DNA of 64,000 nucleotides, taken from the NCBI GenBank assembly GCA_963555825.3, contig CAUVXB020000001.1, positions 1,600,001 to 1,664,000 on the forward strand, in the 5' to 3' direction. A model generated the notes under the pieces. The model made no database searches and had not been told where the DNA came from. It was given only the letters and a program-made list of their open reading frames with translations. Positions 3,136-64,000 of the stretch are shown in pieces (within the stretch, counting starts at the first letter, position 1; every line of letters starts with the position of its first letter). Made by a program: the position numbers and the translations under genes. Source of the DNA: Alphaproteobacteria bacterium. Its GTDB lineage: Bacteria > Pseudomonadota > Alphaproteobacteria > JAAXGF01.

Positions 3136-3225
3136 GAAAAACATTCGATTCCAATTGATGATGAGCGCCAGAAATTGCGGGGCTGGAGCCAAGAGCCTCC
3201 GAGCAGGAATTGGGAAGGTTGTAGG

Positions 3226-48961: not shown

Positions 48962-49675
48962 TTAGCGTTCTTGGGAACGTCGTACGAGCCCCTCGAGTGA
49001 CGCAACATCCAAGATACAAATTGAGCCGTGCTCGTGAACGATGATGCCTTGTGCCTCGAGGGCGCGTAGACCCTTGTTGACGCTCTCACGCGTCACGCCC
49101 AACATTTGGCCAAGATTTTCCTGCGTTAATTTTATGTCGATCGTAATGCCTTCCCGGGTCGGCTTTCCATACCGACTCACGAGCGTGAGCAACCGCTTCG
49201 CCAACCTGTGAGGGAAATCCAGGAAAATCGTGTCCTCGATAATATCACTCGTCCATCGGATCCGCTCACAGAGAACCCTCATCAATCGGATGCTGAGCTT
49301 CGGGTTCCTTTCGAGAAAGGGTAGGAAGTCAGCCTGATCGACCCGCATTAACTCGGCCGGATCGAGTGCCATGGCGCCAGCCGTTCGTTCCTTTCCATCG
49401 AGGAGCGCTATCTCACCGAAGACCTCGCCCGGACCCAAGATGTTGAGAAATATCTCCTTGCCACCCTCCGACGTCGTCGTGATCCCGATGCGGCCACTCA
49501 CAATCGCGTAGAGACTGTCTCCAGGGTCGCCCTTCAGGAAAACGACATCCTTCGCCGCATAGCGCTGCACGCGCGACAGAGCGATCAGCTCATCCAACAT
49601 TTCCGGCTCGAGCTGCCCAAACAGGCGATTTTTCGAGAGCGCCGCCGTGACGCCCGCCGTTGATCGGCGATTCAC
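48962..49675 (-). CDS. Crp/Fnr family regulator (CRP-like)
   Basis: cNMP pocket FGEIALLDG..RTA; HTH LTQENLGQMLGVTRESVNK. Confidence 0.93.
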   Translation of the reverse strand: MNRRSTAGVTAALSKNRLFGQLEPEMLDELIALSRVQRYAAKDVVFLKGDPGDSLYAIVSGRIGITTTSEGGKEIFLNILGPGEVFGEIALLDGKERTAGAMALDPAELMRVDQADFLPFLERNPKLSIRLMRVLCERIRWTSDIIEDTIFLDFPHRLAKRLLTLVSRYGKPTREGITIDIKLTQENLGQMLGVTRESVNKGLRALEAQGIIVHEHGSICILDVASLEGLVRRSQER

Positions 49676-49804
49676 ACCAGGTCACCTCTCGCAAGTCGTT
49701 CAGCGCATCACGGCCGACCGCACAGTGACCGTGGCGGAGTGTCTTTTTGGAGAGTGTCTCAGCGATCGAGGTTCGCACGAACCGAGTTTGTTAACAAGGT
49801 TCCG

Positions 49805-50560
49805 TCAAACGGGCCCGAGTGGGCTGTCCTGCGCCGCGGCAAGGCGGGCCGCCCGCTCCCAAAGGGTGGTGTGTTCGAAGTGGAACTGGGCCGGGTGGCG
49901 GCTGGCATCGGCGCGCACTTGAACCCGCATCGTGCGCAGCATCAAGAGCGCATCCTCTCGCTTCTGGTCGACCCGACCGTTAGGGAGCCACTGCCGGAAC
50001 GCGTGCAACTCCTCGCCCGGAAGGCGGCATCGCTTGCCTTCTTCCAACATGGCGGCGAACGTCCTCTCACGGTACGGGAGGCCTTTGGCGATCACTTCGA
50101 GTCGCTCGCGTGTCTCCTGGAAAACCACGCCCTCGAGAGCAGCGTCCGAAAGCGTCCGCCTGATGTTGACCATCGCCTCCGATAGAACCGGGTAACCAAA
50201 CTCAGCCGGCCCGTGGATGACCGCCACCTCGTCGTCATCTTCCAAGACCCCTTCACGGAAGGCTTCGAAGATGGCGCCTACCCCTTCCATGCCGAATGCC
50301 GCGAGCTCGGCTGCCCGCAGCGCCCCCATACTCGCCGCGCCAAACACGCGAATGCCTCGGTTCAAGGCGTATAGAATTTCCTTATGCCAAACGCTGGGGA
50401 CGCACTCGAAATAGCCGTCGATGATACCGATCGCAGTCGGATTCTCGCACGCCGCCCGGTAGACGTCGCCCTCCGAGACGGGCGGAAGATAAACCGCCTC
50501 GAGTGCGTTCCGCGCCTCAAACGGCGGCAGCGACGGTCCGGTCATGACGAAGACCGTCAT
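49805..50560 (-). CDS. TfuA-like protein
   Basis: IIDGYFECVPSVWHKEIL, GAASMGALRAAEL, DDDEVAV; ATGA-coupled to ycaO. Confidence 0.93.
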   Translation of the reverse strand: MTVFVMTGPSLPPFEARNALEAVYLPPVSEGDVYRAACENPTAIGIIDGYFECVPSVWHKEILYALNRGIRVFGAASMGALRAAELAAFGMEGVGAIFEAFREGVLEDDDEVAVIHGPAEFGYPVLSEAMVNIRRTLSDAALEGVVFQETRERLEVIAKGLPYRERTFAAMLEEGKRCRLPGEELHAFRQWLPNGRVDQKREDALLMLRTMRVQVRADASRHPAQFHFEHTTLWERAARLAAAQDSPLGPV

Positions 50561-51834
50561 GCGTCGCCTCGCAGACGCGCCCGGGCACGCTCGCCGGGGG
50601 CGTAGTTGAACGAGCTATCGACGCCCTCGAGCCCGGGAATGACGACGCGTACCACGGGGATGCCGAACTCTTCCTTGGTCAGGTCGACCACGATGACCTC
50701 GCCGATGCCGACCGAGGCCAAGCGGGCGCACGCCCAATCCACGTCGTCCTCGAAGCGATCGCCGTTCCACGTGTCGACGTCTGCGAAGCTCCGGCATGGC
50801 TCGCCGCGTTCGATGCACGACAGCCACGAGGCATGCGTCTCGGCATCGAGGAATTCGTCATATTCGGCGCGCCACAGGTCGTCGCGCGCGCCGGAAATGA
50901 AGGTCAGGCGGCTCTGGGCGGCCTCGGTGAGCGCCCTGGCGAGCGCCACGTCGCGCGACGCGTGGCAGCCCATGCCGCTCGCCGGTCGACTGCCGTTCGC
51001 CGGCGGCGCGGCCCGTTGGACAATACGGCACAGGAACGCGGGAATGCCGACGTCGGATGTCACGTCCCAGACGCCGACCTCGACGTCGGCTGCCGCGTAT
51101 TTGTCCAGCAGGTCGCGGCAGCCGGGATCGTCGACCGTGCCGAGGTCGATTCGCGTCTGCCCTTGGCCGTCTTCATCGAGCAGGTGCCAGAGCGTGACCG
51201 CGTCCCGTTCGACGACCTCGCAGATCGCGTGGCTGATTGCCTCGAGCCGGTGATTGCCCGAAGCCAGCCCGTTCGAGCTCGCGACGAAGCAGCCGTGACC
51301 GGACGGCAGCGGCAGCGTGTAGTTCAGGTGGACCAACTCGTAGGGCACCCAGACCTCGCGGTCGCCGAGCAGGTCCCGACCGCCGACCCAAAGCAGCTGC
51401 TTGTATGGCGTGAAGCGGCTGTCGACGAGCCTGGAAAGCCGATCGACATCGACCAGGCTATGGCTGTAGCGGAGGTCCTCGACGCTGCCGAGCTTGAGCG
51501 GCAAGGCGATGCGCTCGGCGTGATAGGACTCGATCGATTCCATCAGGCCCGACGCCTTGGCCGCGTCGACGTCGAGCCCCTTGCCCTGGGAAACGGAAAT
51601 CGACCGCGAGTTGGGCCGGCTCACCATGACGACGGGAATGCCGACGGTGTCGAGCCCGGTCACGTTGGCGATGCGGGTGATGCCCATGACGGGCATGAAA
51701 TGGCGGACCCGCTCGACGGTCTCGCGCGGCGGCACGAGGCGATGGGTGCCCGCCGTGAAGCCCTTGCGCGCGCCGGCGGCAACGCCTTCGACCGGCTCGT
51801 GTCCGACACGCGCTATGCTCACCGAGAGCGCCAT
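50557..51834 (-). CDS. YcaO-family ATP-dependent peptide-modifying enzyme (TfuA-associated)
   Basis: GITRIANVTGLD..GIPV, SQGKG, MESIE, SSNGLASG, EVVERDA, TEAAQSR, VVIPGLE; no C-terminal PxP. Confidence 0.95.
   Translation of the reverse strand: MALSVSIARVGHEPVEGVAAGARKGFTAGTHRLVPPRETVERVRHFMPVMGITRIANVTGLDTVGIPVVMVSRPNSRSISVSQGKGLDVDAAKASGLMESIESYHAERIALPLKLGSVEDLRYSHSLVDVDRLSRLVDSRFTPYKQLLWVGGRDLLGDREVWVPYELVHLNYTLPLPSGHGCFVASSNGLASGNHRLEAISHAICEVVERDAVTLWHLLDEDGQGQTRIDLGTVDDPGCRDLLDKYAAADVEVGVWDVTSDVGIPAFLCRIVQRAAPPANGSRPASGMGCHASRDVALARALTEAAQSRLTFISGARDDLWRAEYDEFLDAETHASWLSCIERGEPCRSFADVDTWNGDRFEDDVDWACARLASVGIGEVIVVDLTKEEFGIPVVRVVIPGLEGVDSSFNYAPGERARARLRGDA
50997..51045. repeat. 49-bp exact direct repeat, copy inside ycaO
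   Basis: Identical to 52600-52648. Confidence 0.95.
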
Positions 51835-52043
51835 CGACTCCCCTGTCCTTGGCCCTGGCCCGATAGGCGCGCCGGACCCTTGGATGAACGCACTCCCTCT
51901 ATGCGGCCGCGCGAGACGCGCCGCACGCACCAATCACTCGTACTGGCGATGCACTCCGAATCGGCGGCCCGACAAGCGGCCAGACCCGACTACGCCCGAC
52001 CGACCGCGTCGTTTTTGGCGCCGATCATCGAGCGGGCTCCGAG

Positions 52044-52493
52044 CTAATCCGCCGCGTCAACGCGGATGCGCGCCGCCGCGTGGTCGCCGGGGTCGATCAC
52101 GTAGCAAGCTGCACCATGGTCGCCGGGGTCGATCACGTAGCGAGACGCACCATGATCGTCCGGCTCGATGCGCATGTGCGCCGCCAGATTGTCGCCCGGC
52201 TCGATCACGTAGCGAGCAGCACCATGGTCGCCCGGCTCGATCACGTAGCGAGCAGCACCATGGTCGCCCGGCTCGATCACGTAGCGAGCAGCACCATGAT
52301 CGTCCGGCTCGGTCATAGTGCGAGCTGCCATATGATCTGAATGACTAGCCATAACGCGATCTGATGGCTCGGTACCGCCCGCAGAAACCTCATCTAGTAC
52401 CGTTGGAACCGGTTGGGACGCACGAGCCGAAACATCGTAGAGGACGCCGTCCGCTCCGCGGACCAACGTGCTCTGTCGATCGTCGTGTGGCAT
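52044..52493 (-). CDS. Putative multicore RiPP precursor (52-aa leader + 8 x 12-aa cores)
   Basis: RBS GGAGG; tandem DHGAARYVIEPG-like units from residue 53 to 148; directly upstream of ycaO-tfuA. Confidence 0.8.
   Translation of the reverse strand: MPHDDRQSTLVRGADGVLYDVSARASQPVPTVLDEVSAGGTEPSDRVMASHSDHMAARTMTEPDDHGAARYVIEPGDHGAARYVIEPGDHGAARYVIEPGDNLAAHMRIEPDDHGASRYVIDPGDHGAACYVIDPGDHAAARIRVDAAD
52050..52337 (-). repeat. Eight tandem 36-bp coding repeats
   Basis: Unit ~CCCGGCTCGATCACGTAGCGAGCAGCACCATGGTCG on + strand, no spacers. Confidence 0.92.
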
Positions 52494-52562
52494 TTTCGCC
52501 TCCGCTGAAGGTTGGCAATGTTCGCAACGTTTGGATATCTACCGAACCGACACGCCATTGTC

Positions 52563-52578
52563 TGTGAACTACTTCACA
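52563..52578. promoter_or_regulatory. CRP-like box upstream of the precursor
   Basis: TGTGA-actact-TCACA, about 70 bp before ATG 52493. Confidence 0.7.
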
Positions 52579-52599: not shown

Positions 52600-52648
52600 T
52601 CGCCGGCGGCGCGGCCCGTTGGACAATACGGCACAGGAACGCGGGAAT
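52600..52648. repeat. 49-bp exact direct repeat, intergenic copy
   Basis: TCGCCGGCGGCGCGGCCCGTTGGACAATACGGCACAGGAACGCGGGAAT, identical to 50997-51045. Confidence 0.95.
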
Positions 52649-52850: not shown

Positions 52851-53852
52851 TTACTGAGCAGTTTCTCCTGTTGTGGGTGTCACAGGTGGGTTGATCCAGA
52901 CGGCTTGGGGAAGGGGATCCGGTTGTGGTATCCCTCGAACGAAGCGTTCGGGATGACGGGTCCAGGCGGCTTGAAGGGTCCGCCCGCGCTGCTCCAGCAC
53001 GCTCTGGGTTCGATTGTGATGCACGTCGTCCGGGGTGAGCATGGCGATCCCGCCATGGCGATGTTCGGTGTTGTACCAAGGGAAGAACGTTCGGCAGAAG
53101 GCGATCGCGGCGGTGATGTCGTGGAAGCGGCCAGGGAAGCCGGGGTGGTACTTCAGGGTCTTGAACTGCGCCTCGGAGAAGGGGTTGTCGTCGGACACCT
53201 GAGGGCGGCTCAGTGAACGGGTCACGCCGAGGTCGGCGAGCAGTTGTGCGGTGCACTTGCTCGTCATCGGCGCGCCGCGGTCGGAGTGCAGGGTGAGCAC
53301 CTGGGGCTGGACGCCCTGTTTATGGCAGGTCTCTTCGATGAGACGACCGGCCAGCGCCGAGTTCTCCCGGTCTGCGACCATCCAGCCGACCGCGTAGCGG
53401 CTGAAGATGTCGAGCACGACGTAGAGGTAGAAGTACGTCCACTTGGTCGGCCCCAACAGCTTGGTGATGTCCCAGGACCAGGTCTGGTTCGGCGCCGTGG
53501 CCACCAGCTCGGGCTTGGTGTACTGGGGATGCTCGCGCTGATTGCGCCGCTCTCGGACCGGCTGATCGGCGGCCAGGATCCGATACATCGTCCGCTCCGA
53601 GCACAGGTAATGGCCTTCGTCGAGCAGCGTCGCCACGACCTCCGCCGGCGCACGGTCGACGAAGCGCGGGCCGGCGAGCACATCGAGGATCTGCTCGCGC
53701 TCGGCTTCACACAGCGCCCGGGCGGGCGTTGGACGGGGCTGCTGGTGCCCGGGAGTTGACCTCTGACGACGGTAGAAGCTCGCCCGTGACACGCCCAGTG
53801 CTTGGCAGGCCGGCGCCACGCCGACCTGCGCCGCAAGCGGTTGGACCGCCAT
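52851..53852 (-). CDS. IS3-family transposase OrfB
   Basis: WSWDITKL, LDIFSRY, HSDRG, DNPFSEAQFKTLKY; TGATG coupling to orfA. Confidence 0.9.
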   Translation of the reverse strand: MAVQPLAAQVGVAPACQALGVSRASFYRRQRSTPGHQQPRPTPARALCEAEREQILDVLAGPRFVDRAPAEVVATLLDEGHYLCSERTMYRILAADQPVRERRNQREHPQYTKPELVATAPNQTWSWDITKLLGPTKWTYFYLYVVLDIFSRYAVGWMVADRENSALAGRLIEETCHKQGVQPQVLTLHSDRGAPMTSKCTAQLLADLGVTRSLSRPQVSDDNPFSEAQFKTLKYHPGFPGRFHDITAAIAFCRTFFPWYNTEHRHGGIAMLTPDDVHHNRTQSVLEQRGRTLQAAWTRHPERFVRGIPQPDPLPQAVWINPPVTPTTGETAQ

Positions 53853-54334
53853 CAAGAGCGCGTTCCGTGTTCGAGGTTCAATCCCAGCAGCCCGGCAACT
53901 TTTCCCTGCACGTCCAGGATCGTGTGCGCGGTGTGCAACTCGTGCTCCAGGCGAGCCACTTGCGCCTCGAGCGCGCGCACCTTCGCATCCAGCGGGTTGC
54001 GTTCGGCCGGTTTCGCGCCGCGCTTCTTCGCGGCCAACTCCCGCAGCGAGCCCTTGCGCCGCGCCTTGCGCCAAGCCGTCAGATGCGAGCTGTACAACCC
54101 CTCGCGGCGAAGCAGGCGGCCCACCTCGCCGGGCTGTGTGCAGCGATCCGCCTCCTCCAGAATCCGCAGCCGATACTCTGCGGTGAACTGGCGCCGCTTC
54201 GGCTTGGCCACAACCTCCGGGTCCGGGGTCGGTCTGGCGCGGCCGGCCCTGGGGGCCTCGTCGCTACGCTCCTCGACCCCAAGGGCCGGAACGGAAACCT
54301 CATTCAATGTCATCGAGTCTCTCTCTGCGGTCAT
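53852..54334 (-). CDS. IS3-family transposase OrfA
   Basis: RRQFTAEYRLRIL, LLRREGLYSSHLTAWR. Confidence 0.88.
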   Translation of the reverse strand: MTAERDSMTLNEVSVPALGVEERSDEAPRAGRARPTPDPEVVAKPKRRQFTAEYRLRILEEADRCTQPGEVGRLLRREGLYSSHLTAWRKARRKGSLRELAAKKRGAKPAERNPLDAKVRALEAQVARLEHELHTAHTILDVQGKVAGLLGLNLEHGTRS

Positions 54335-54568
54335 CGGTTTTCACCTCCACCGCCCTACAGAAATTCCGAAGGTTGCTGGTGTCTCAGTGATGTTGGCAGA
54401 GAGGGCCGTGCTGATCGGGGCCGCGTCCGAAGCGGTCATCGACGAAGAACTGGAAAGGGCGGCAAGAACGCCGGCACGCGCAGCGCACGGCGTGCATTAG
54501 CGTCACGGCTAAGCGGCTCGGACAATTAGAGACGACGAAGCGCTCACAGAGAGCTATTGTCAAAAGTT

Positions 54569-56369
54569 GACGGGGCGGTAAAAAGTCGATTCCTCATGAG
54601 AGTCGGCTGGATTATAATTGTGCATGTTTACTTTACGCGACCGACGGACTGGGGAATTGTTTGATCGCTGGTCCGATTTCGGGGACAAACGTCGGCGCCT
54701 GATGGAGCAATCCTGGGCCGGGGTTTTTCGGAACCATCTGCTTGTCGAACTTCCGGTTGACGATCTTTGCCGTCACCTTGATGAACGCATGGGCCGACCA
54801 TCGAAGGATCTACACGTTGTCATCGGGGTCTTGCTTTTGCAGCAGCTGCACGATCTGAGCGATGCAGAGACCGTCGAGGCCCTGGCCTTCAATATGGCGT
54901 GGCACTATGCCTTGGACGTGCGCAGCGAAGCGGACAGCTATTTCTGTGAGAAAACCCTGCGCAACTATCGCCGTCTGTTTATCGAACAAGGTCTCGATGA
55001 ATTGCTGTTCCGGTGTTTGACGGATCGGCTGGTGCAGGGGTTCTCTGTCGATACCAGCCACCAACGCATGGATTCGACGGCCCTTCGTTCGGCAATGCGG
55101 GCGCTGACACGACTTGGTATCGTTGTTGAGAGCATCTCGAAGTTTGCCCGTGAGCTTGAGCGATATCATCCCGGTCTGCACGAGCAGATCAGCAAGGAGG
55201 TGATCCGCCGCTATGTCGATCGCGAGGGTAATGGCGCGTTCGCGAATACGGCGCCGAGTGTTTCAAAACGGCGCCTCGGCGAAGCGGGTCAGTATCTCCT
55301 AGCCCTGGTGCTGCAATTCCGTGACACGGCGGCGGCAAAGCTTTCCAGTTTTGCGATCCTGGAGAGGGTTCTGCGCGATCAGTTCGAGATCGTTGATGAT
55401 GAGTATGGCGATCGTGACGCAACGCGCGCCGCGATTCGAGATCCAAAGGATGTGCCGTGCGATACCGTCGGCAATCCGGCCGACCCGGACGCGAGCTACA
55501 ACGCGCACAAGGGTCAAGGATACATGGCGCAGATCGTCGAAACCTATTGTGAAGATGTCAGTAACGAGGCGGTTGCCGCGACACCGGACCTCATCACCCA
55601 CGTGGAGGTCCACAAGATGACGGTGCATGACGGCCATCGCTTAGCCGATGCGCTGGATGATCTGAGCGAGCGCGCGCTGACGCCGGCGGTGATGCTGGGT
55701 GATTCACATTACGGTTCCAGTGACAACATGGCTCTGACGCGCGAACAGAACATCAATCTCGTGGCGCCCGCACGACCGCCGAAAGGCGCCGTCTCGGGAC
55801 GGTTGACGTTGGAGGATTTCACTCTCAACGAAGAAGGCTTGGTCTTGCGCTGTCCCAATAACGTCGAACCGGTTTCAGCCTCGCTCGCCAAAGCCAAGCT
55901 GCAGGCCCGTTTCGACCTCTCCATCTGCCAAAAATGTCCCGATATACTGCGATGTCCCGTGCAGGCGGCCAAGCGTGACGGCCAATTTTCCCGCTTTCAA
56001 TATACCCCGGCCAGGGCTGCCAACCAAAAGCGCCGGCTTTATGAACAAAGCGATGCCTTCCGCAACGTCTACAGATGGCGGGCCGGCATAGAAGCGACCA
56101 TGTCGCGATTAAAGTACCAGATGAACCTGGCTCACCTACGCATTCGCGGCATGCCGGCCATGCGCTACGTGGTCAATCTGCGTGCCCTCGGCCTCAATAT
56201 CCGACGCTGCGCGGCAATCGCACCATAAAAAACGAAGCCAAGGAGAAGCCAAGGGTAGGTAATATCAGGTTTTATCCACCAGCAACGCGGAGACAGGCAA
56301 ATATTCTTCACCGAACCGCAAAGACCTGTACAAGCACGCCATCGGCCAACAACTTTTTATCGCCCCGTC
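54569..56369 (+). mobile_element. IS1182/IS5-like element, copy 1 (1801 bp)
   Basis: Ends GACGGGGCGGTAAAAAGT / ACTTTTTATCGCCCCGTC; both flanks are IS256 IR sequence. Confidence 0.85.
54618..56228 (+). CDS. IS1182/IS5-like transposase
   Basis: GRPS..LLLQQLHDLSD, MDST, DPDASY, GDSHYG, RAGIEATMSRLK. Confidence 0.88.
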   Translation: MCMFTLRDRRTGELFDRWSDFGDKRRRLMEQSWAGVFRNHLLVELPVDDLCRHLDERMGRPSKDLHVVIGVLLLQQLHDLSDAETVEALAFNMAWHYALDVRSEADSYFCEKTLRNYRRLFIEQGLDELLFRCLTDRLVQGFSVDTSHQRMDSTALRSAMRALTRLGIVVESISKFARELERYHPGLHEQISKEVIRRYVDREGNGAFANTAPSVSKRRLGEAGQYLLALVLQFRDTAAAKLSSFAILERVLRDQFEIVDDEYGDRDATRAAIRDPKDVPCDTVGNPADPDASYNAHKGQGYMAQIVETYCEDVSNEAVAATPDLITHVEVHKMTVHDGHRLADALDDLSERALTPAVMLGDSHYGSSDNMALTREQNINLVAPARPPKGAVSGRLTLEDFTLNEEGLVLRCPNNVEPVSASLAKAKLQARFDLSICQKCPDILRCPVQAAKRDGQFSRFQYTPARAANQKRRLYEQSDAFRNVYRWRAGIEATMSRLKYQMNLAHLRIRGMPAMRYVVNLRALGLNIRRCAAIAP

Positions 56370-56457
56370 GAATCTTGTGTACGGCGTTGAAATGAAGGCG
56401 GCGTATCCTGGTGATTGTTGATGTCACCACTTGAGCTAAGCCAAGGAAGGATACGCC

Positions 56458-57702
56458 ATGAAAGAGAATACCGTTGTTGCTTTTCAAAACCCATCTGATT
56501 TTCAGAAAGATCCGTTGACGGAAGTCCTACAAGCTGGAGCTCGCGAGTTGTTGGCCCAAGCCGTTGAGGCCGAGGTCTCCGTGTTTTTGGGTAGCCATGC
56601 GGCGCTTGTTGACGCCGCCGGCCGCCGCCGGGTTGTCCGCAATGGATATCTGCCGGAACGCTTCATCCAGACCGGGATCGGCCCGGTGAGCGTGCGCCAA
56701 CCCCGTGTGCGGGACCGGGGGGACGGCGCCATCCGCTTCACGTCGGCGATCCTGCCGCGCTATCTGCGCCGCGCCAAGAGCCTGGAAGACCTTTTGCCAT
56801 GGCTGTATCTGAAGGGCATTTCCACCGGCGACTTCGGGGAAGCCTTGGCGGCGCTCCTGGGGAGCTCCGCGCCGGGGCTTTCGGCCTCCACGATCACCCG
56901 GCTGAAAGAGGTCTGGGGGGTTGAGGCGGAGCGCTGGCAACGGCGCGACCTCACGGCCAAGCGCTACGTCTATTTCTGGGTGGACGGCATCTATTTCAGC
57001 GCCCGCATGGAGGAAGAGAAGCAGTGCATCCTGGTGATCGTCGGGGCCACGGACAAGGGACAGAAGGAACTGATCGCCATCGCCGACGGCTATCGCGAAA
57101 GTGAGCAGTCCTGGCTCGAAGTTCTGCTCGATCTCAAGCGGCGCGGCCTTGAAATGGGTCCGCAACTGGCGCTCGGCGACGGCGCGCTCGGCTTCTGGAA
57201 GGCGCTCCGCCAAGTCTACCCAGGCGCCCGCGAGCAACGCTGCTGGGTTCACAAGACGGGCAACGTCTTGAACAAGCTGCCCAAGGGTCTGCAAAAGAAA
57301 GCCAAGGGGCGCCTGCAAGACATCTGGATGGCCGAAACCAGGAAGGATGCCGAGAGCGCCTTCGACTTCTTCCTGGAAGCCTACGGGCCGAAGTACGACA
57401 AGGCCGCGGCCTGCCTGGCCAAGGACCGCGACGTCCTGCTGACGTTCTACGACTTCCCCGCCGAGCACTGGAAGCATGTACGCACGACCAACCCCATCGA
57501 GAGCACGTTCGCCACGGTTCGTCTGCGCACCTACCGGACCAAGGGCTGCCTGTCGCGCAAGACGGCGATGGCCATGGTCTTCAAACTATGCCAGTGCGCT
57601 CAGAGAAAATGGAGAAAACTCGATGGATCGAACCATCTCGCCGAGATCATTCGCGGCGTCAAATTCGTAGATGGAGAACGCCAGGATCGCGCCGCCGCAT
57701 GA
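56458..57702 (+). CDS. IS256 family transposase
   Basis: RNGYLPER, WVDGIY, GDGALGFW, QRCWVHK, RTTNPIES. Confidence 0.95.
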   Translation: MKENTVVAFQNPSDFQKDPLTEVLQAGARELLAQAVEAEVSVFLGSHAALVDAAGRRRVVRNGYLPERFIQTGIGPVSVRQPRVRDRGDGAIRFTSAILPRYLRRAKSLEDLLPWLYLKGISTGDFGEALAALLGSSAPGLSASTITRLKEVWGVEAERWQRRDLTAKRYVYFWVDGIYFSARMEEEKQCILVIVGATDKGQKELIAIADGYRESEQSWLEVLLDLKRRGLEMGPQLALGDGALGFWKALRQVYPGAREQRCWVHKTGNVLNKLPKGLQKKAKGRLQDIWMAETRKDAESAFDFFLEAYGPKYDKAAACLAKDRDVLLTFYDFPAEHWKHVRTTNPIESTFATVRLRTYRTKGCLSRKTAMAMVFKLCQCAQRKWRKLDGSNHLAEIIRGVKFVDGERQDRAAA

Positions 57703-57722
57703 TCAGCCCATACACAACTTTT

Positions 57723-59523
57723 GACGGGGCGGTAAAAAGTCGATTCCTCATGAGAGTCGGCTGGATTATAATTGTGCATGTTTACTTTACGCGACCGACG
57801 GACTGGGGAATTGTTTGATCGCTGGTCCGATTTCGGGGACAAACGTCGGCGCCTGATGGAGCAATCCTGGGCCGGGGTTTTTCGGAACCATCTGCTTGTC
57901 GAACTTCCGGTTGACGATCTTTGCCGTCACCTTGATGAACGCATGGGCCGACCATCGAAGGATCTACACGTTGTCATCGGGGTCTTGCTTTTGCAGCAGC
58001 TGCACGATCTGAGCGATGCAGAGACCGTCGAGGCCCTGGCCTTCAATATGGCGTGGCACTATGCCTTGGACGTGCGCAGCGAAGCGGACAGCTATTTCTG
58101 TGAGAAAACCCTGCGCAACTATCGCCGTCTGTTTATCGAACAAGGTCTCGATGAATTGCTGTTCCGGTGTTTGACGGATCGGCTGGTGCAGGGGTTCTCT
58201 GTCGATACCAGCCACCAACGCATGGATTCGACGGCCCTTCGTTCGGCAATGCGGGCGCTGACACGACTTGGTATCGTTGTTGAGAGCATCTCGAAGTTTG
58301 CCCGTGAGCTTGAGCGATATCATCCCGGTCTGCACGAGCAGATCAGCAAGGAGGTGATCCGCCGCTATGTCGATCGCGAGGGTAATGGCGCGTTCGCGAA
58401 TACGGCGCCGAGTGTTTCAAAACGGCGCCTCGGCGAAGCGGGTCAGTATCTCCTAGCCCTGGTGCTGCAATTCCGTGACACGGCGGCGGCAAAGCTTTTC
58501 AGTTTTGCGATCCTGGAGAGGGTTCTGCGCGATCAGTTCGAGATCGTTGATGATGAGTATGGCGATCGTGACGCAACGCGCGCCGCGATTCGAGATCCAA
58601 AGGATGTGCCGTGCGATACCGTCGGCAATCCGGCCGACCCGGACGCGAGCTACAACGCGCACAAGGGTCAAGGATACATGGCGCAGATCGTCGAAACCTA
58701 TTGTGAAGATGTCAGTAACGAGGCGGTTGCCGCGACACCGGACCTCATCACCCACGTGGAGGTCCACAAGATGACGGTGCATGACGGCCATCGCTTAGCC
58801 GATGCGCTGGATGATCTGAGCGAGCGCGCGCTGACGCCGGCGGTGATGCTGGGTGATTCACATTACGGTTCCAGTGACAACATGGCTCTGACGCGCGAAC
58901 AGAACATCAATCTCGTGGCGCCCGCACGACCGCCGAAAGGCGCCGTCTCGGGACGGTTGACGTTGGAGGATTTCACTCTCAACGAAGAAGGCTTGGTCTT
59001 GCGCTGTCCCAATAACGTCGAACCGGTTTCAGCCTCGCTCGCCAAAGCCAAGCTGCAGGCCCGTTTCGACCTCTCCATCTGCCAAAAATGTCCCGATATA
59101 CTGCGATGTCCCGTGCAGGCGGCCAAGCGTGACGGCCAATTTTCCCGCTTTCAATATACCCCGGCCAGGGCTGCCAACCAAAAGCGCCGGCTTTATGAAC
59201 AAAGCGATGCCTTCCGCAACGTCTACAGATGGCGGGCCGGCATAGAAGCGACCATGTCGCGATTAAAGTACCAGATGAACCTGGCTCACCTACGCATTCG
59301 CGGCATGCCGGCCATGCGCTACGTGGTCAATCTGCGTGCCCTCGGCCTCAATATCCGACGCTGCGCGGCAATCGCACCATAAAAAACGAAGCCAAGGAGA
59401 AGCCAAGGGTAGGTAATATCAGGTTTTATCCACCAGCAACGCGGAGACAGGCAAATATTCTTCACCGAACCGCAAAGACCTGTACAAGCACGCCATCGGC
59501 CAACAACTTTTTACCGCCCCGTC
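57723..59523 (+). mobile_element. IS1182/IS5-like element, copy 2 (1801 bp)
   Basis: Near-identical to copy 1; 7-bp TSD AACTTTT (57716-57722, 59524-59530). Confidence 0.88.
57772..59382 (+). CDS. IS1182/IS5-like transposase
   Basis: Same as 54618-56228 except one S>F change. Confidence 0.88.
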   Translation: MCMFTLRDRRTGELFDRWSDFGDKRRRLMEQSWAGVFRNHLLVELPVDDLCRHLDERMGRPSKDLHVVIGVLLLQQLHDLSDAETVEALAFNMAWHYALDVRSEADSYFCEKTLRNYRRLFIEQGLDELLFRCLTDRLVQGFSVDTSHQRMDSTALRSAMRALTRLGIVVESISKFARELERYHPGLHEQISKEVIRRYVDREGNGAFANTAPSVSKRRLGEAGQYLLALVLQFRDTAAAKLFSFAILERVLRDQFEIVDDEYGDRDATRAAIRDPKDVPCDTVGNPADPDASYNAHKGQGYMAQIVETYCEDVSNEAVAATPDLITHVEVHKMTVHDGHRLADALDDLSERALTPAVMLGDSHYGSSDNMALTREQNINLVAPARPPKGAVSGRLTLEDFTLNEEGLVLRCPNNVEPVSASLAKAKLQARFDLSICQKCPDILRCPVQAAKRDGQFSRFQYTPARAANQKRRLYEQSDAFRNVYRWRAGIEATMSRLKYQMNLAHLRIRGMPAMRYVVNLRALGLNIRRCAAIAP

Positions 59524-59628
59524 AACTTTTGACAATAGCTCCGCCATACCAAGGAGACGCGACTAAGAACCATAGAGATCCTGTACGCTTTTCGCCGGGT
59601 CGGAAGCGAGCCGCGGGCGATGGAATTA

Positions 59629-59908
59629 TACCAAGGGTCAGTGATAAAGGCCCCCAGAGATCGCGTCCGCATTTCGCCGGTGAGGCAAGACAGCCGCGGG
59701 CGATGCAGCGCATCGGCTAGGCGTCCTGACGACCTCCGGCGAAAAGCGGCCGCGACCCGAAGGGCGGCTTGCCGAGGCTCTCGGACGTCGTTGCACCGGT
59801 CTTGCGATGCGCCTCCTATTGCCATACGTGGGCATCGCCGCGACGGGCGCGCCTAGCCGAGAACCACGGCAAGCCGTCTCTAGGGGTCTTTATCACTGAT
59901 CCTTGGTA
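59629..59908. mobile_element. 280-bp MITE
   Basis: ~32-bp IRs TACCAAGGGTCAGTGATAAAGGCCCCCAGAGA / TCTCTAGGGGTCTTTATCACTGATCCTTGGTA; TTA direct repeat on both sides. Confidence 0.78.
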
Positions 59909-60433
59909 TTAGGCAGAGCGTTCGAATTCCGTCGACGACGGGGAACCAAATAGGACAAGGGGTCGCGCCGCCCGGGCGCGATCTCCCTTGTTGCATTTGG
60001 GCGTCAGCCGGCCTCAGCCGCCGCGCAGGGCGATAGCGCGGCCGGCCTGGGGCAGCCGGGGTAGCGTGGCGTGCCTATCGGCAACCGCGCGGACCCGGGC
60101 CATGGCGTCGGCCGGAAAGGCGGCCGCGCGCCGGCGGGCGAGGTCGACGTTGAGGTAGAGGACCTGATTGGTCGCCGCCAGATAGCCCTCGGCGGCGTGG
60201 CGCATGAAATGCATGACATCGAGCGCCTTGTCGGTTGCGCCCAGAACCCGGCTCTCGAAGCGCAGCGGGTCATCCTCGCGCAATTCGCGCTCGAACACGA
60301 TGTGCGTCTCGTTGGCGAACAGGGCGTGGTTGGTGCGCTTGCGATAGGCCTCGCTGACGTCGAGCTGTGTGAACAAGTGGCGTGCGGCGTCCTCGAAGGC
60401 GAGCAGGTAGTAGCCGAGGTTCATGTGGCCTGA

Positions 60434-61608
60434 TACCAGTGAGCGCCTGAATTGACTCTCGGGATATTCATTGATGGCGGATGATGGCGGATTGTGATTC
60501 TATGGTCTCCCACCAGATGTGGGGGATGTCATGGGATCAGCACTCAAGATACGGGATGATTTGACGCCTTTGGAGCTTCGGCGCTGGGCTCGCGTGGAAT
60601 CGTACGGTCGAGCGGCGGCGCGGGCCTATGGGATCGCGAATGCTTTGGAGGAGATGCCCCGGGCTGATGCCGCGCGGCTTGCGGGGATGGATCGCCAAAC
60701 GCTTCGCGACGCGGTTGTTCGTTACAATGCAAAGGGATTGGAGGGGCTTCACGACCGTCCAAAGGGCTACTCGCCGCGGCGGCTGACGGCAGACGAGGAA
60801 GCGGCGCTGGCGGCGGTCATCATCGCCGGGCCGGAGCCTGAGCGCGACGGGGTTTGCGCCTGGACCCGGGCCGATCTGTGCCGCTGGCTGGAGGAGCGCT
60901 TCGCCAAGACCTACCACCCCTCGAGCATGACCCGGGTTCTACGGCGGATGGGATTTTCCCGCCAGAAGGCGCGCCCGAGCCACCCGCGAAGGGACGCCGA
61001 AGCGCAGGAGCGCTTCAAAAAAGGGGGCTTCGCGACATCCTGAAGGCGACCGCCGCGGCGCATCCCGACAAGCGCCTACAGCTGTGGTTTCAGGATGAAG
61101 CGCGCGTCGGCAACAAGGGCCGGGTGTGTCACCGGTGGTGGCGCAGGGGCGAGCGTGCCCCCGGGACGCGTCAAATCGGCTACCAGTGGGCCTACATCTT
61201 CTCCGCCGTGCGCCCGGACACCGGCGACGACGTCACCCTGGTGATGCCGAGCGTCAACGCCAAGGTCATGGACCTGTTTCTCGCACACTTCGCCGATACC
61301 CTGGACCAGGATGCGCACGCCGTCATGATGTGCGACGGCGCCGGTTGGCACGACGAGCGCGCCCTCACCGTCCCCGACAACGTCACCTTGGCGCTGTTGC
61401 CGCCTTACAGTCCCGAACTCAACCCCGTCGAGCGGGTTTGGCTCTACCTACGCGAACGCTTCCTATCGCTCCGCGTCCTCGACGACACCGAGGCCATCAT
61501 CGACGCCTGTTGCCAAGCATGGATCGACCTCATCGCAGAACCGGATCGTATGCGAACCCTCTGCGCCTATCCATGGATCATGAAGGTGATTTCATAGGCT
61601 CACTGGTA
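60434..61608 (+). mobile_element. IS630 family element
   Basis: IRs TACCAGTGAGC / GCTCACTGGTA; TGA duplicated at 60431-60433 and 61609-61611. Confidence 0.9.
60531..61597 (+). CDS. IS630 transposase, two ORFs probably joined by a programmed -1 frameshift
   Basis: OrfA HTH ending FKKGG at AAAAAAGGGGG (61017-61027); OrfB WFQDEAR, CDGAGWH, LPPYSPELNPVE. Confidence 0.88.
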
Positions 61609-61675
61609 TGAGTAGTCGATCCACTCGGACTGGACGGTCGCCTCGTAGGGCGTGATGACTGACGGGTTCGACATC

Positions 61676-62991
61676 GAGCTATAACCGAATCTTGTGTACG
61701 GCGTTGAAATGAAGGCGGCGTATCCTGGTGATTGTTGATGTCACCACTTGAGCTAAGCCAAGGAAGGATACGCCATGAAAGAGAATACCGTTGTTGCTTT
61801 TCAAAACCCATCTGATTTTCAGAAAGATCCGTTGACGGAAGTCCTACAAGCTGGAGCTCGCGAGTTGTTGGCCCAAGCCGTTGAGGCCGAGGTCTCCGTG
61901 TTTTTGGGTAGCCATGCGGCGCTTGTTGACGCCGCCGGCCGCCGCCGGGTTGTCCGCAATGGATATCTGCCGGAACGCTTCATCCAGACCGGGATCGGCC
62001 CGGTGAGCGTGCGCCAACCCCGTGTGCGGGACCGGGGGGACGGCGCCATCCGCTTCACGTCGGCGATCCTGCCGCGCTATCTGCGCCGCGCCAAGAGCCT
62101 GGAAGACCTTTTGCCATGGCTGTATCTGAAGGGCATTTCCACCGGCGACTTCGGGGAAGCCTTGGCGGCGCTCCTGGGGAGCTCCGCGCCGGGGCTTTCG
62201 GCCTCCACGATCACCCGGCTGAAAGAGGTCTGGGGGGTTGAGGCGGAGCGCTGGCAACGGCGCGACCTCACGGCCAAGCGCTACGTCTATTTCTGGGTGG
62301 ACGGCATCTATTTCAGCGCCCGCATGGAGGAAGAGAAGCAGTGCATCCTGGTGATCGTCGGGGCCACGGACAAGGGACAGAAGGAACTGATCGCCATCGC
62401 CGACGGCTATCGCGAAAGTGAGCAGTCCTGGCTCGAAGTTCTGCTCGATCTCAAGCGGCGCGGCCTTGAAATGGGTCCGCAACTGGCGCTCGGCGACGGC
62501 GCGCTCGGCTTCTGGAAGGCGCTCCGCCAAGTCTACCCAGGCGCCCGCGAGCAACGCTGCTGGGTTCACAAGACGGGCAACGTCTTGAACAAGCTGCCCA
62601 AGGGTCTGCAAAAGAAAGCCAAGGGGCGCCTGCAAGACATCTGGATGGCCGAAACCAGGAAGGATGCCGAGAGCGCCTTCGACTTCTTCCTGGAAGCCTA
62701 CGGGCCGAAGTACGACAAGGCCGCGGCCTGCCTGGCCAAGGACCGCGACGTCCTGCTGACGTTCTACGACTTCCCCGCCGAGCACTGGAAGCATGTACGC
62801 ACGACCAACCCCATCGAGAGCACGTTCGCCACGGTTCGTCTGCGCACCTACCGGACCAAGGGCTGCCTGTCGCGCAAGACGGCGATGGCCATGGTCTTCA
62901 AACTATGCCAGTGCGCTCAGAGAAAATGGAGAAAACTCGATGGATCGAACCATCTCGCCGAGATCATTCGCGGCGTCAAATTCGTAGATGG
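61676..62991 (+). mobile_element. IS256 family element, copy 2, interrupted near its 3' end
   Basis: Intact IRL GAGCTATAACCGAATCTTGTGTA; matches copy 1 until 62991. Confidence 0.9.
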
Positions 62992-63031
62992 TGAGTCGGA
63001 CCCGATTTCCTTGGACACAGAATTGGCTTAA
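61775..63031 (+). CDS. IS256 transposase with last residues replaced by IS3 sequence
   Basis: Identical to 56458-57702 up to KFVDG. Confidence 0.88.
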   Translation: MKENTVVAFQNPSDFQKDPLTEVLQAGARELLAQAVEAEVSVFLGSHAALVDAAGRRRVVRNGYLPERFIQTGIGPVSVRQPRVRDRGDGAIRFTSAILPRYLRRAKSLEDLLPWLYLKGISTGDFGEALAALLGSSAPGLSASTITRLKEVWGVEAERWQRRDLTAKRYVYFWVDGIYFSARMEEEKQCILVIVGATDKGQKELIAIADGYRESEQSWLEVLLDLKRRGLEMGPQLALGDGALGFWKALRQVYPGAREQRCWVHKTGNVLNKLPKGLQKKAKGRLQDIWMAETRKDAESAFDFFLEAYGPKYDKAAACLAKDRDVLLTFYDFPAEHWKHVRTTNPIESTFATVRLRTYRTKGCLSRKTAMAMVFKLCQCAQRKWRKLDGSNHLAEIIRGVKFVDGESDPISLDTELA

Positions 63032-64000
63032 TCGAAGTGTCCAAGGAGGACCGGAACATGACCGACAATTTTGAGAACAAAGTTGCTGTTGATGGGCCTG
63101 TGGTAAACGAGGGCGAGCTTGGCTCGTCCACGTTTTCCCCGGGCCAGGTTTCGCCGGCAGGCCCGCTGGGACTTGGCCAGCGGTGGACGGTGACGCGCAA
63201 GCGTGAGGTTGCCCTGCGGCTTTTGCGTGGCGAGCCGGTGGAACTTTTGTCGCGGCAGTTGGGCGTGGAGATTTTCCGGCTCGAGCAGTGGCGTGAGAAG
63301 GCGATCGCCGGGATCGATGCCTCGCTCAAGGAACGCAAGGGCGATCCGGTGAAGGCGGAACTGGACATCGCCATGAAGCGGATCGGGGAGTTGATCATGC
63401 AGGTGGAACTGCTGGAGGCCAAGACGGAGACGTCCGGCCCTTTGGGGCGGCGGAGGTCGCGGCGATGAGTGCCGCCACCTCTCCCGGCACGGGTTTGGCC
63501 TACGGCCTCCAGCGGGTCTGTGCGGCCTGGGGTTTTGCCCGTTCCTCGTTCTACGCCATGAAATCCCGGCAGCAGGCCACCGCTGAGCGCCCACCAGCAA
63601 AGCGCCGGGGACCGAAGCCCTCGATCTCGGACGAGGCTCTGCTGGTGGCCATCGAGGCCGACCTGGAGGCATCCCCCTGGGAGGGCGAGGGACACCGCAA
63701 GGTCTGGGCTCGGCTTCGGGTCTGTCGTGGCATCCGTGTTTCCCGCAAGCGGGGGCTCCGGGTGATGCGCGAGAACAACCTGCTCTCGCCCCATCGCTGC
63801 CGCCGCCGTGGCGGAAATCCCCATGTCGGTGAGATCATCACCCATGCCCCCAACCTCATGTGGGGCACGGACGGCGTTCGGGTGTTCACGGTGGACGACG
63901 GCTGGGGCTGGATATTCACCGCCATCGAGCATTGGAACGCCGAGTGCGTCGGCTGGCATGTGTGCAAGCGAGGCGACCGCTTCGCCGCCCTTCAGCCGAT
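62992..64000 (+). mobile_element. IS3-family element, runs off window
   Basis: TG start at divergence from IS256; orfA 63058-63468 (WTVTRKREVALRLLRGE); orfB from 63465 (GHRKVW, PNLMWGTD). Confidence 0.82.

What the first reader, a model, noticed from the sequence alone, without database searches (positions are those of the whole stretch)
48962..52578. Candidate new multicore thioamide RiPP: 8 x 12-aa core precursor + YcaO + TfuA + Crp
Seen: a 149-aa ORF with a good RBS. Residues 53-148 are eight contiguous 12-mers (DHMAARTMTEPD, DHGAARYVIEPG x3, DNLAAHMRIEPD, DHGASRYVIDPG, DHGAACYVIDPG, DHAAARIRVDAA) behind a 52-aa leader containing LVRGADGVLY. It is followed on the same strand by intact, translationally coupled ycaO-tfuA and a Crp regulator. 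Known: YcaO+TfuA pairs install backbone thioamides (methyl-coenzyme M reductase thioglycine, thioviridamide-type thioamitides, and the repeat-precursor thiovarsolins). The YcaO lacks the C-terminal PxP of azoline-forming YcaOs and the cores are nearly Cys/Ser/Thr-free. Inference: the locus makes a small library of thioamidated His/Asp-rich peptides, or one poly-thioamidated repeat protein, possibly metal-binding. I do not recognise the core from any described RiPP. No dedicated protease, exporter or ThiS-like sulfur carrier is adjacent.
Basis: partly seen in the sequence, partly recalled or inferred. Interest (0 to 1): 0.92.

Follow-up and report, generated by a model that had tools for sequence, protein, structure and literature searches.

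The report
Repeat-core peptide precursor with thioamide enzymes
A small gene encoding eight near-identical 12-residue peptide units sits in front of two enzymes that put sulfur into peptide backbones, and the same unit recurs in related soil and marine bacteria together with a cyclic-nucleotide switch, so it is probably an undescribed family of modified peptides.

Summary
On the minus strand lie a 149-aa ORF (52-aa leader plus 8 x 12-aa repeats), ycaO, tfuA (4-nt overlap with ycaO) and a Crp/Fnr gene.

- **Real family.** The ORF matches 92 cluster representatives out of 1.84 billion. The leader xLVRGADGxLYxVS is nearly invariant. Cores G-D-H-x-[AS]-[ASG]-R-x-x-[IV]-[DE]-P-G occur from once to about 20 times, and some relatives carry different cores.
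- **Fixed gene order.** Wherever the DNA was held, the ORF directly precedes ycaO (18 of 18 places), followed by tfuA and crp (14 of 14).
A TGTGA-N6-TCACA Crp-type box lies 93-145 nt upstream of the leader Arg codon in 17 of 18 places. A roughly 1,050-aa cyclase-ATPase-TPR gene is adjacent in 16 of 18.
- **This genome is damaged.** Here the cyclase lies 16.7 kb away behind an IS island and carries three lesions.

Best reading: a leader-guided, multi-core YcaO/TfuA thioamide RiPP under cNMP-Crp control, closest in logic to thiovarsolin. Neither the chemistry nor expression was tested. I found no description in the papers searched. I rate it a new variant of a known kind.

The parts
52563..52578 (-). 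Crp-type palindromic box TGTGAAGTAGTTCACA, centred 110 nt upstream of the leader Arg codon
   Evidence: The window holds 3 perfect TGTGA-N6-TCACA sites against 0.01 expected. A box with at most 1 mismatch lies at the same relative place in 17 of 18 related places, and there are no perfect boxes in the other 186,433 nt of those loci.
52499..52503 (-). Ribosome-binding site GGAGG, 5 nt before the ATG
   Evidence: Read directly from the sequence.
52338..52493 (-). Leader of the precursor (residues 1-52) with the motif TLVRGADGVLYDVS
   Evidence: Among 90 family members, R is kept in 90, G in 88, D in 89, G in 90, L in 87 and Y in 89. Invariant columns are listed in alignment A1.
52050..52337 (-). 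Eight contiguous 12-residue core units (residues 53-148). Three are identical at the protein level.
   Evidence: Family unit logo: G-D-H-x-[AS]-[ASG]-R-x-x-[IV]-[DE]-P-G.
52044..52493 (-). Whole precursor ORF (149 aa plus stop)
   Evidence: No Pfam or NCBIfam family matches it.
50557..51933 (-). ycaO. This is the longest ORF; the probable start is the ATG at 51834, giving 425 aa.
   Evidence: Pfam PF02624 4.7e-86. TIGR00702 scores 203.6 bits, above its cut-off. The nearest solved structure is MJ1094 (6pe3), 7e-33.
49805..50560 (-). tfuA. Its start overlaps the ycaO stop by 4 nt.
   Evidence: Pfam PF07812 1.2e-46. PDB 6xp8 3.9e-39. It is the only TfuA match in the genome.
48962..49675 (-). Crp/Fnr-family regulator
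   Evidence: cNMP_binding and HTH_Crp_2. GEI...ERTA and TRE..N are invariant in 8 module Crps.
52600..52648 (.). Exact 49-nt copy of an internal ycaO segment (50997-51045), just upstream of the box. Its meaning is unknown.
   Evidence: Contigs of runs X4 and X6 join 52600 directly to 52648.
52851..64000 (.). IS island that separates the precursor promoter from the module's cyclase gene, which lies outside the window at about G000:C1:1669150-1674050
   Evidence: Transposase domains rve, HTH_Tnp_1, DDE_Tnp_1_6, Transposase_mut and DDE_3.

Best explanation
The 149-aa ORF is the precursor of a leader-guided, multi-core RiPP.

**Shown by comparison**
- The precursor belongs to a conserved module: Crp box, precursor, ycaO, tfuA, crp.
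- Outside this genome the module also includes an adjacent class III cyclase-AAA ATPase-TPR gene.

**Inferred mechanism**
1. The cyclase makes cAMP or cGMP in response to an unknown input.
2. The module's Crp binds that nucleotide and then binds TGTGA-N6-TCACA in front of the precursor, switching on precursor-ycaO-tfuA.
3. YcaO recognises the LVRGADGxLY leader and activates one backbone amide per core unit with ATP. TfuA helps deliver sulfur from a ThiS-type carrier encoded elsewhere. The result is one thioamide per unit.
4. My best guess for the site is the bond before the near-invariant Arg (small-small-Arg), by analogy with the Ala-Pro(C=S)-Arg of thiovarsolin.
5. Housekeeping peptidases then trim the polyprotein to short thioamide-protected peptides.

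In this genome the enzymes, precursor and regulator are intact. The cyclase is displaced by 16.7 kb of mostly IS DNA, inverted, and carries an in-frame stop, a frameshift and a 1.6-kb insertion. Induction here may therefore be lost, or may depend on one of three intact paralogous cyclases.
For: **Anatomy.**

**Family.**
- 30 relatives in the word-indexed search.
- 92 profile hits at <=1e-3 and 45 at <=1e-10 among 1.84 billion representatives.
- 91 of 117 proteins held carry the leader motif. The leader is nearly invariant while core sequences and copy number vary.
- Copy number runs from 1 in Azospirillum to about 20 in L015, counted by eye.
- Other core types sit behind the same leader: DDSQRHAANFIGTTP, ASADLY and GGFQYIPV.

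**Linkage.**
- ycaO lies directly downstream in 18 of 18 places with DNA held. One further place ends inside the precursor.
- tfuA then crp follow in 14 of 14.
- ycaO and tfuA start and stop codons overlap or abut.

**Box.** Perfect in 12 of 18 places and one mismatch in 5 more, with none elsewhere in 186,433 nt of the same loci.

**Crp.** The phosphate-binding cassette and the TRE..N recognition helix are invariant in 8 of 8 module Crps.

**Cyclase.**
- Domain order Guanylate_cyc, AAA_16, TPR.
- Adjacent in 16 of 18 places.

**Enzyme kinship.**
- MJ1094 YcaO 7e-33 and TfuA 6xp8 3.9e-39.
- The best NCBIfam hits are the McrA-thioamidation models.

**Sulfur carriers.** There are 5 ThiS-family matches elsewhere in the genome.

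**Precedent.** varA-varY-varT alone give a thioamidated tripeptide from a 1-5-repeat precursor with no cluster protease (PMC6511847, passages read).
Against: - No chemistry, binding or expression data exist. The thioamide, its site and the cleavage are inferences.
- One relative (G002) has neither a box (<=2 mismatches within 400 nt) nor a cyclase match in the 1.3 kb held upstream.
- The Arg is not universal: P0050 and P0063 have I/L-P there, P0084 has Q, and L041 and L051 have no Arg.
- Two close YcaO-TfuA-Crp loci (G289 and G404, 56-58% identity) show no recognisable leader ORF. Only 1 of 6 inspected loci at 46-52% identity does.
- Both enzymes fall below the cut-offs of the McrA equivalog models (237.2 against 365; 211.6 against 235.2).
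- The local cyclase is a pseudogene.
- Many of the loci are kin, especially five Azospirillum-type places, so the counts overstate independence.
Confidence: 0.62

Rival explanations
1. The same enzymes act on the same ORF, but the product is not cut. It would be a poly-thioamidated repeat protein that works as a whole, for example as a metal-binding or structural protein rich in His and Asp.
For: No protease or exporter is conserved beside the module. D-H is strongly kept at unit positions 2-3 (D in 179 and H in 111 of 199 units). Precursors can reach 317 aa.
Against: Copy number runs from 1 to about 20 and unit length from 6-7 to about 22 residues, with unrelated core types behind one leader. 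That pattern fits independent units better than one fold. Single-core members of 60-65 aa cannot form a repeat protein. Thiovarsolin shows that a cluster protease is not needed.
Confidence: 0.15
2. YcaO performs a different ATP-dependent backbone chemistry on the cores, such as an amidine, an oxazoline from the frequent Ser, or another nucleophile. TfuA would then have a role other than sulfur delivery.
For: Both enzymes score below the cut-offs of the thioamidation equivalog models. Ser is common at unit positions 5-6. YcaO enzymes are known for several chemistries (general knowledge, recalled).
Against: A translationally coupled TfuA is present in every locus. No Cys, Ser or Thr is invariant in the units. 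The SagD-type cyclodehydratase model is below its cut-off (144.7 against 219.25). No dehydrogenase or E1-like partner is conserved nearby. The C-terminus lacks a PxPxP tail (the motif's meaning is recalled).
Confidence: 0.1
3. The small ORF is not the substrate. YcaO-TfuA would modify some other cellular protein, as with McrA or ribosomal protein uL16, and the repeat ORF would be an unrelated or regulatory neighbour.
For: YcaO enzymes that modify large proteins exist: McrA, and uL16 in Pseudomonadota (PMC13063428, abstract seen in the listing). Two close YcaO-TfuA-Crp loci lack a detectable leader ORF.
Against: The leader-bearing ORF sits directly upstream on the same strand in 18 of 18 testable places, across several families of Alphaproteobacteria. 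The module occurs patchily: 6 of 401 genomes sampled from the class match at E<=0.001, and 4 of those were verified. It lies on plasmids in Azospirillum. Neither fact fits a housekeeping role. The conserved-leader, variable-core pattern is that of RiPP precursors.
Confidence: 0.05

Closest known systems
Thiovarsolins (varA-varY-varT, Streptomyces varsoviensis; PMC6511847, passages read)
   Same: - A YcaO-TfuA pair next to a precursor whose core is an imperfect tandem repeat.
- The family ranges from non-repeating to multi-repeat precursors.
- There is no protease in the cluster.
- An Arg preceded by small residues sits in each unit. Thiovarsolin is N-acetyl-Ala-Pro(C=S)-Arg.
   Different: - Cores here are G-D-H-x-[AS]-[ASG]-R-x-x-[IV]-[DE]-P-G, with no Pro before the Arg.
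- The leader is LVRGADGxLY.
- The hosts are Alphaproteobacteria.
- None of the var accessory genes (heme-oxygenase-like, ATP-grasp, amidinotransferase, MFS) is conserved nearby.
- Instead there is a dedicated Crp, a Crp box and a cyclase-ATPase-TPR gene.
- Homology of the precursor to VarA was not tested, because no VarA sequence was available to me.
McrA-glycine thioamidation pair (YcaO MJ1094-type plus TfuA) of methanogens
   Same: These are the nearest solved structures and the best-scoring curated models. The inferred chemistry is the same.
   Different: Scores are below the equivalog cut-offs. The host is a bacterium, and the substrate is a small repeat peptide rather than an enzyme subunit.
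Thioamitides (thioviridamide, thiostreptamide S4, thioalbamide)
   Same: Backbone thioamides installed by YcaO-TfuA on a ribosomal precursor.
   Different: These have a single core with several consecutive thioamides, an AviCys macrocycle and many tailoring genes, in Actinobacteria. None of those genes is present here, and there is no conserved C-terminal Cys.
Orphan proteobacterial TfuA-YcaO clusters catalogued by genome mining (PMC8120280, passages read)
   Same: That survey reports over a thousand TfuA-related clusters in Proteobacteria, so this locus would be picked up as one of them.
   Different: Its main text contains neither 'repeat', 'Crp' nor 'cyclic nucleotide'.
cAMP-CRP regulons with STAND-type class III cyclases
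   Same: The cyclase-AAA-TPR architecture. A Crp with an intact cNMP cassette and a TGTGA-N6-TCACA site.
   Different: Here the cyclase, regulator and operator are dedicated to one small biosynthetic operon and travel with it. I found no paper holding both TfuA and a nucleotide cyclase in this sense.

Membership tests
YcaO-TfuA thioamidated RiPPs (general class) | YcaO-domain enzyme | tested here: met
   PF02624 4.7e-86. TIGR00702 scores 203.6 bits against a cut-off of 75.65.
YcaO-TfuA thioamidated RiPPs (general class) | TfuA partner encoded next to YcaO | tested here: met
   PF07812 1.2e-46, with a 4-nt overlap. TfuA follows YcaO in 14 of 14 related places with DNA held.
YcaO-TfuA thioamidated RiPPs (general class) | Adjacent small precursor with a conserved leader and a variable core | tested here: met
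YcaO-TfuA thioamidated RiPPs (general class) | Backbone thioamide in the product | not testable with these tools
   This needs mass spectrometry or NMR.
Thiovarsolin family | Repeat units containing Ala/Gly-Pro-Arg | tested here: not met
   Units have [AS]-[ASG]-R. Pro is rare at those positions (4 of 199).
Thiovarsolin family | Conserved var accessory genes (heme-oxygenase-like, ATP-grasp, amidinotransferase, MFS) | tested here: not met
   Across 9 stretches, the only gene clusters shared by 3 or more that are not alternate-frame shadows are cyclase, precursor, ycaO, tfuA and crp. One further upstream gene is shared only by three Azospirillum-type loci.
Thiovarsolin family | Precursor homologous to VarA | not tested
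McrA-glycine thioamidation proteins (TIGR03266 / NF033432 equivalogs) | Score above the curated equivalog cut-off | tested here: not met
   237.2 against 365 and 211.6 against 235.2.
Azoline-forming TOMM cyclodehydratases (SagD-type) | Score above the TIGR03604 cut-off, and Cys/Ser/Thr nucleophiles in the core | tested here: not met
   144.7 against 219.25. No invariant Cys, Ser or Thr in the units.
Crp/Fnr regulators that bind a cyclic nucleotide | cNMP-binding domain with phosphate-binding cassette, plus Crp-type HTH | tested here: met
   Pfam. G87-E88-I89, E96-R97-T98-A99 and T195-R196-E197..N200 are invariant in 8 of 8. Mapping these onto E. coli CRP residues is recalled.
Crp/Fnr regulators that bind a cyclic nucleotide | Binding of the regulator to the box | not testable with these tools
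   Only the conserved position of the box is shown.

The most novel reading that the evidence does not exclude
The module is a self-contained peptide-signalling circuit. The thioamidated peptides cut from the multi-core precursor would be sensed by the TPR domain of the module's own cyclase-ATPase protein. That protein would then make a cyclic nucleotide, which drives Crp onto the box in front of the precursor. This would be a positive-feedback, quorum-sensing-like loop in Alphaproteobacteria that uses a thioamide RiPP as its signal, comparable in logic to the TPR peptide receptors of Gram-positive bacteria. Repeat number would set signal dosage.
Probability: 0.1. Interest if true: 0.85.

Novelty: new variant of a known kind. 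Interest (0 to 1): 0.62.

Why it matters
**A new proteobacterial case.** In the papers I read here, all characterised YcaO-TfuA thioamide peptides come from Actinobacteria, and the many proteobacterial clusters are uncharacterised (PMC8120280, passages). This family offers:
- a defined leader;
- a simple three-gene minimal set;
- natural variants from one core to about twenty;
- copies on plasmids of cultured, genetically tractable Azospirillum strains.

That makes it a practical system for studying how a TfuA-type YcaO recognises its substrate and picks its site.

**Built-in regulation.** The fixed pairing with a cyclase-ATPase-TPR protein, a Crp and a Crp box is unusual for a RiPP operon. 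It gives a direct handle on when the peptide is made and possibly on what it is for.

**Annotation.** The precursor is currently 'hypothetical protein' or not called at all.

Tried and rejected
**Steps that gave nothing**
- **Complex prediction** (YcaO alignment A2 plus residues 1-76 of the precursor alignment A1): no answer. Score 0.00 in both runs and the controls were not run. This is neither for nor against binding.
- **The look-up of sequencing runs, kind rna**: no RNA holder listed.
- **Read laying**, all from contigs:
  - Runs X4 and X6 hold the stretch almost letter for letter.
  - Two marine-sediment runs whose libraries are labelled metatranscriptomic (RNA is only a guess) hold a roughly 92%-alike relative of crp-tfuA-ycaO in one contig, plus a piece over the leader and box.
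  - This says nothing about expression.
- **Promoter and terminator scan**: 0 promoter-like sites and 4 terminator-like sites against 2.9 expected.
- **Fold of the precursor-ycaO spacer**: z-score +0.86. No sign of an attenuator.
- **ESM Atlas**: no usable hit.
- **First genome-contig scan with the single protein**: nothing. The alignment was needed.

**False positives dropped**
- L016 (G086): antisense of a 375-aa ORF that I read by eye as a luciferase-like monooxygenase (not scanned against a family library).
- L049 (G470): a low-complexity repeat with no YcaO nearby.
- L017 (G164): neither a leader nor a YcaO in the 2.4 kb held.
- Profile hits to long proteins of 205-7069 aa were not examined and are not counted as family members.

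**Not found**
- No leader-type ORF in G289, G404, G122, G096, G054, G258 or G105.
- G385, G116, G383 and the weaker YcaO hits were not inspected.

**Literature**
- Motif search: the four leader or leader-plus-core strings had 0 occurrences in every paper listed. The listed 'DPGDH' matches were unrelated enzyme abbreviations.
- TfuA/YcaO with Proteobacteria, repeats, metal, Azospirillum, or cyclase/Crp/cAMP: no paper describing this family.
- the one paper with both words concerns an unrelated mycobacterial gene list.
The networks of PMC8120280 and PMC6511847 may contain these precursors.

**Considered and set aside**
- That the adjacent pqqBCDE genes belong to the module. They are absent from all other loci.

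Full report
**1. The observation**

Everything lies on the minus strand.
- The 149-aa ORF at 52044-52493 has GGAGG five bases before its ATG.
- Tandem Repeats Finder reports period 36, 6.5 copies, 83% matches and score 300. The repeat finder shows seven copies in 36-nt register.
- Downstream come ycaO (50557-51933, Pfam 4.7e-86), tfuA (49805-50560, 1.2e-46, overlapping the ycaO stop by 4 nt) and a Crp/Fnr gene (48962-49675).
- The homologues' N-termini suggest that ycaO starts at the ATG at 51834.
- The precursor matches no Pfam or NCBIfam model.

**2. The ORF is a real gene with relatives**

- The word-indexed search found 30 unnamed relatives at E<=0.01 among 343 candidates.
- An exhaustive profile search of 1.84 billion cluster representatives found 92 at E<=1e-3, 45 at <=1e-10 and 7 at <=1e-30.
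- Of the 117 proteins then held, 91 are at most 200 aa and carry the leader motif.
- In 90 of them, the leader positions R-G-A-D-G-x-L-Y are kept in 90, 88, 78 (Pro in the other 12), 89, 90, -, 87 and 89 cases.
- The unit logo, from 199 distinct units, is G-D-H-x-[AS]-[ASG]-R-x-x-[IV]-[DE]-P-G. Asp is kept in 179, Arg in 163 and Gly in 161. Pro (199 of 199) and the hydrophobic residue two before it are fixed by the anchoring regex, so they are not independent evidence of conservation.
- Copy number runs from one in Azospirillum-type loci to about twenty in a 317-aa precursor (L015; counted by eye).
- Entirely different cores sit behind the same leader:
  - DDSQRHAANFIGTTP x5 (L043);
  - ASADLY x2 (L041);
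  - a 22-residue unit (L039);
  - GGFQYIPV (L051).
- A conserved leader with variable, modular cores is the signature of a RiPP precursor.

**3. Linkage to the enzymes**

I collected 19 places from five sources: representative genomes, metagenome contigs, the window's taxonomic class, YcaO-first searches and plasmids. I tabulated them in one script, with L051 taken.

| Feature | Result |
|---|---|
| ycaO directly after the leader ORF, same strand | 18 of 18 places with DNA held. One place (L004 = L034) ends inside the precursor. In G002 the link spans two contigs. |
| tfuA then crp | 14 of 14 with DNA held |
| Other shared genes | Across nine stretches, the only clusters shared by three or more that are not alternate-frame shadows of GC-rich DNA are cyclase, precursor, ycaO, tfuA and crp. 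One further upstream gene is shared only by the three Azospirillum-type loci. No protease or exporter travels with the module. |

Several places are close kin. L029, L035, L037 and L050 share almost the same precursor, so these counts are not independent trials.

The reverse test is weaker.
- Among 401 genomes sampled from the class, 26 have a YcaO match at <=1e-30.
- Of the eight best (at least 56% identity, the window included), six have a leader ORF or its repeat tail. G289 and G404 do not.
- Of six inspected at 46-52% identity, only G115 does.

**4.

*The box*
- A perfect TGTGA-N6-TCACA palindrome lies at 52563-52578. The window holds three such sites against 0.01 expected.
- The whole 6.04-Mb genome holds nine. 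Only two are of the subtype TGTGAA-N4-TTCACA.
- A box sits 93-145 nt upstream of the leader Arg codon in 17 of 18 testable places: perfect in 12 and one mismatch in 5. G002 has none.
- No other perfect box occurs in the remaining 186,433 nt of those loci.

*The regulator*
- The module's Crp keeps G-E-I...E-R-T-A and T-R-E..N invariant in 8 of 8 sequences.
- From memory of E. coli CRP, these correspond to the cAMP phosphate-binding cassette and to the helix that reads TGTGA.

*The cyclase*
- A protein of about 1,050 aa with Guanylate_cyc, AAA_16 and TPR domains is encoded directly upstream on the same strand in 15 places.
- It is convergent downstream of crp in L005.
- It was not found in the 1.3 kb held upstream in G002.
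- It could not be tested in L039, where the contig starts inside the precursor.

**5. The state of this genome**

- The best cyclase match (44% identity) lies at about G000:C1:1669150-1674050. That is 16.7 kb from the precursor, on the opposite strand, and outside the window.
- It carries three lesions: an in-frame TAA inside the cyclase domain, a frameshift, and a roughly 1.6-kb insertion in the TPR part.
- The part of the intervening DNA that I annotated (the 11 kb inside the window) holds at least six transposase genes.
- Three intact paralogues of the same architecture exist at 28-30% identity.
- In Azospirillum lipoferum 4B the cyclase is also split, by an IS5 transposase.
- The biosynthetic half is intact here, and it is the genome's only TfuA. 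Its dedicated input is probably lost.

**6. Mechanism**

*Shown*
- Gene content, order and coupling.
- The conserved box and its position.
- Kinship of the enzymes to the solved thioamide-forming MJ1094 YcaO (7e-33) and to a TfuA structure (3.9e-39).
- Best NCBIfam matches to the McrA-thioamidation models, though below their equivalog cut-offs.
- ThiS-type carriers encoded elsewhere in the genome (5 matches).

*Inferred*
- cNMP-Crp activates the operon.
- YcaO activates a backbone amide with ATP, and TfuA supports sulfur transfer. TfuA's role with ThiS thiocarboxylate is recalled, not read here.
- One thioamide forms per unit.
- Housekeeping peptidases release the products.

*The precedent: thiovarsolin*
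- varA-varY-varT suffice.
- The precursor family ranges from non-repeating to five repeats.
- There is no cluster protease.
- The product is N-acetyl-Ala-Pro(C=S)-Arg (PMC6511847, passages).

By analogy I place the thioamide before the near-invariant Arg. The Arg is absent from some family members, so the site is a guess. Function is unknown. Metal binding by Asp-His plus thioamide and signalling are both open.

**7. Comparison and novelty**

- The locus belongs to the known class of YcaO-TfuA RiPP clusters. Such clusters are known to be numerous and uncharacterised in Proteobacteria (PMC8120280, passages).
- It fails the specific tests for the thiovarsolin family (no A/G-P-R, no var accessory genes), for thioamitides, for McrA equivalogs and for azoline-forming TOMMs.
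- I found no paper with the leader or core motifs, and none linking TfuA to a nucleotide cyclase or Crp.
- RefSeq calls the Azospirillum precursor a hypothetical protein.
- I rate it a new variant of a known kind: a new precursor family with a new, dedicated regulatory architecture.

**8. Limits**

- There is no expression, binding or chemical evidence.
- The complex prediction gave no answer, and no RNA run on record holds the stretch.
- The class sample gave only 6 of 401 genomes matching at E<=0.001, of which four were verified.
- The phylum sample gave one further hit, which was false.
- The family is therefore rare and, in what I searched, confined to Alphaproteobacteria.

Noticed in passing
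window 47505-48617 (+): pqqE, the last gene of a pqqBCDE-like row next to the locus (the pqqB/C/D names are by eye and were not scanned; pqqE's downstream half matched Pfam SPASM), has an in-frame stop at 47946-47948 (HAKKI*VAGW). Contigs of runs X4 and X6 span it with 1 and 0 differences, none of them at the stop, so it is not an error peculiar to this assembly. Those runs may be the same strain.
   Followed up: partly
window 50997-51045 and 52600-52648: An exact 49-nt direct repeat. One copy is a piece of the ycaO coding sequence; the other lies 22 nt upstream of the Crp box. Contigs of runs X4 and X6 join 52600 directly to 52648, so they lack 47 nt there. Unexplained: it could be a small duplication, a strain difference or an assembly effect.
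   Followed up: partly
window 52851-64000: An IS island. It holds an IS3-type pair (52851-54334), two equal-length DDE_Tnp_1_6 transposase genes (54618-56228 and 57772-59382; only the first was scanned, the second is inferred from equal length), two Mutator-family genes (56458-57702 and 61775-63031; again only the first was scanned) and a DDE_3 gene (60854-61597).
   Followed up: partly
G000:C1:1669150-1674050 (L027 5150-10050), outside the window: The module's cyclase-ATPase-TPR gene is broken by an in-frame TAA (C1:1669513), a frameshift near L027 7393-7399 and a roughly 1.6-kb insertion (L027 8082-9715).
   Followed up: yes
G000:C1:1668816-1668831 (L024 1501-1516): The genome's only other TGTGAA-N4-TTCACA box. 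It lies within the first codons of a 98-aa minus-strand ORF that has no Pfam match, about 330 nt upstream of the broken cyclase. An XRE-type HTH gene lies beside it.
   Followed up: partly
window 3036-3051 and 3078-3093: Two more perfect TGTGA-N6-TCACA sites 42 nt apart, at the start of a 655-aa ORF (3028-4995). They are of a different subtype (TGTGAY...RTCACA) from the precursor box.
   Followed up: no
L050 (NC_016587.1, Azospirillum lipoferum 4B plasmid AZO_p4) 1253-8788: The same module sits on a plasmid of a cultured strain. The 65-aa single-core precursor is annotated 'hypothetical protein' (WP_014189396.1). The cyclase is split by an IS5 transposase. YcaO matches of 48-61% identity occur on 14 plasmid records (11 Azospirillum, 2 Paracoccus, 1 Indioceanicola).
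   Followed up: partly
L043 (G115), between the precursor and ycaO: An extra ORF of about 130 aa that looks like a response-regulator receiver domain lies between the precursor and ycaO. It was seen in this locus only and was not run against Pfam.
   Followed up: no
L040 (G289) and L045 (G404): AT-rich genomes of about 1.6 Mb carry ycaO-tfuA-crp at 56-58% YcaO identity. No recognisable RGxDGxLY leader ORF was found, and no cyclase match apart from one weak hit (E 5.5e-5) at the far edge of L045 and none in L040. Their substrate is unknown.
   Followed up: partly
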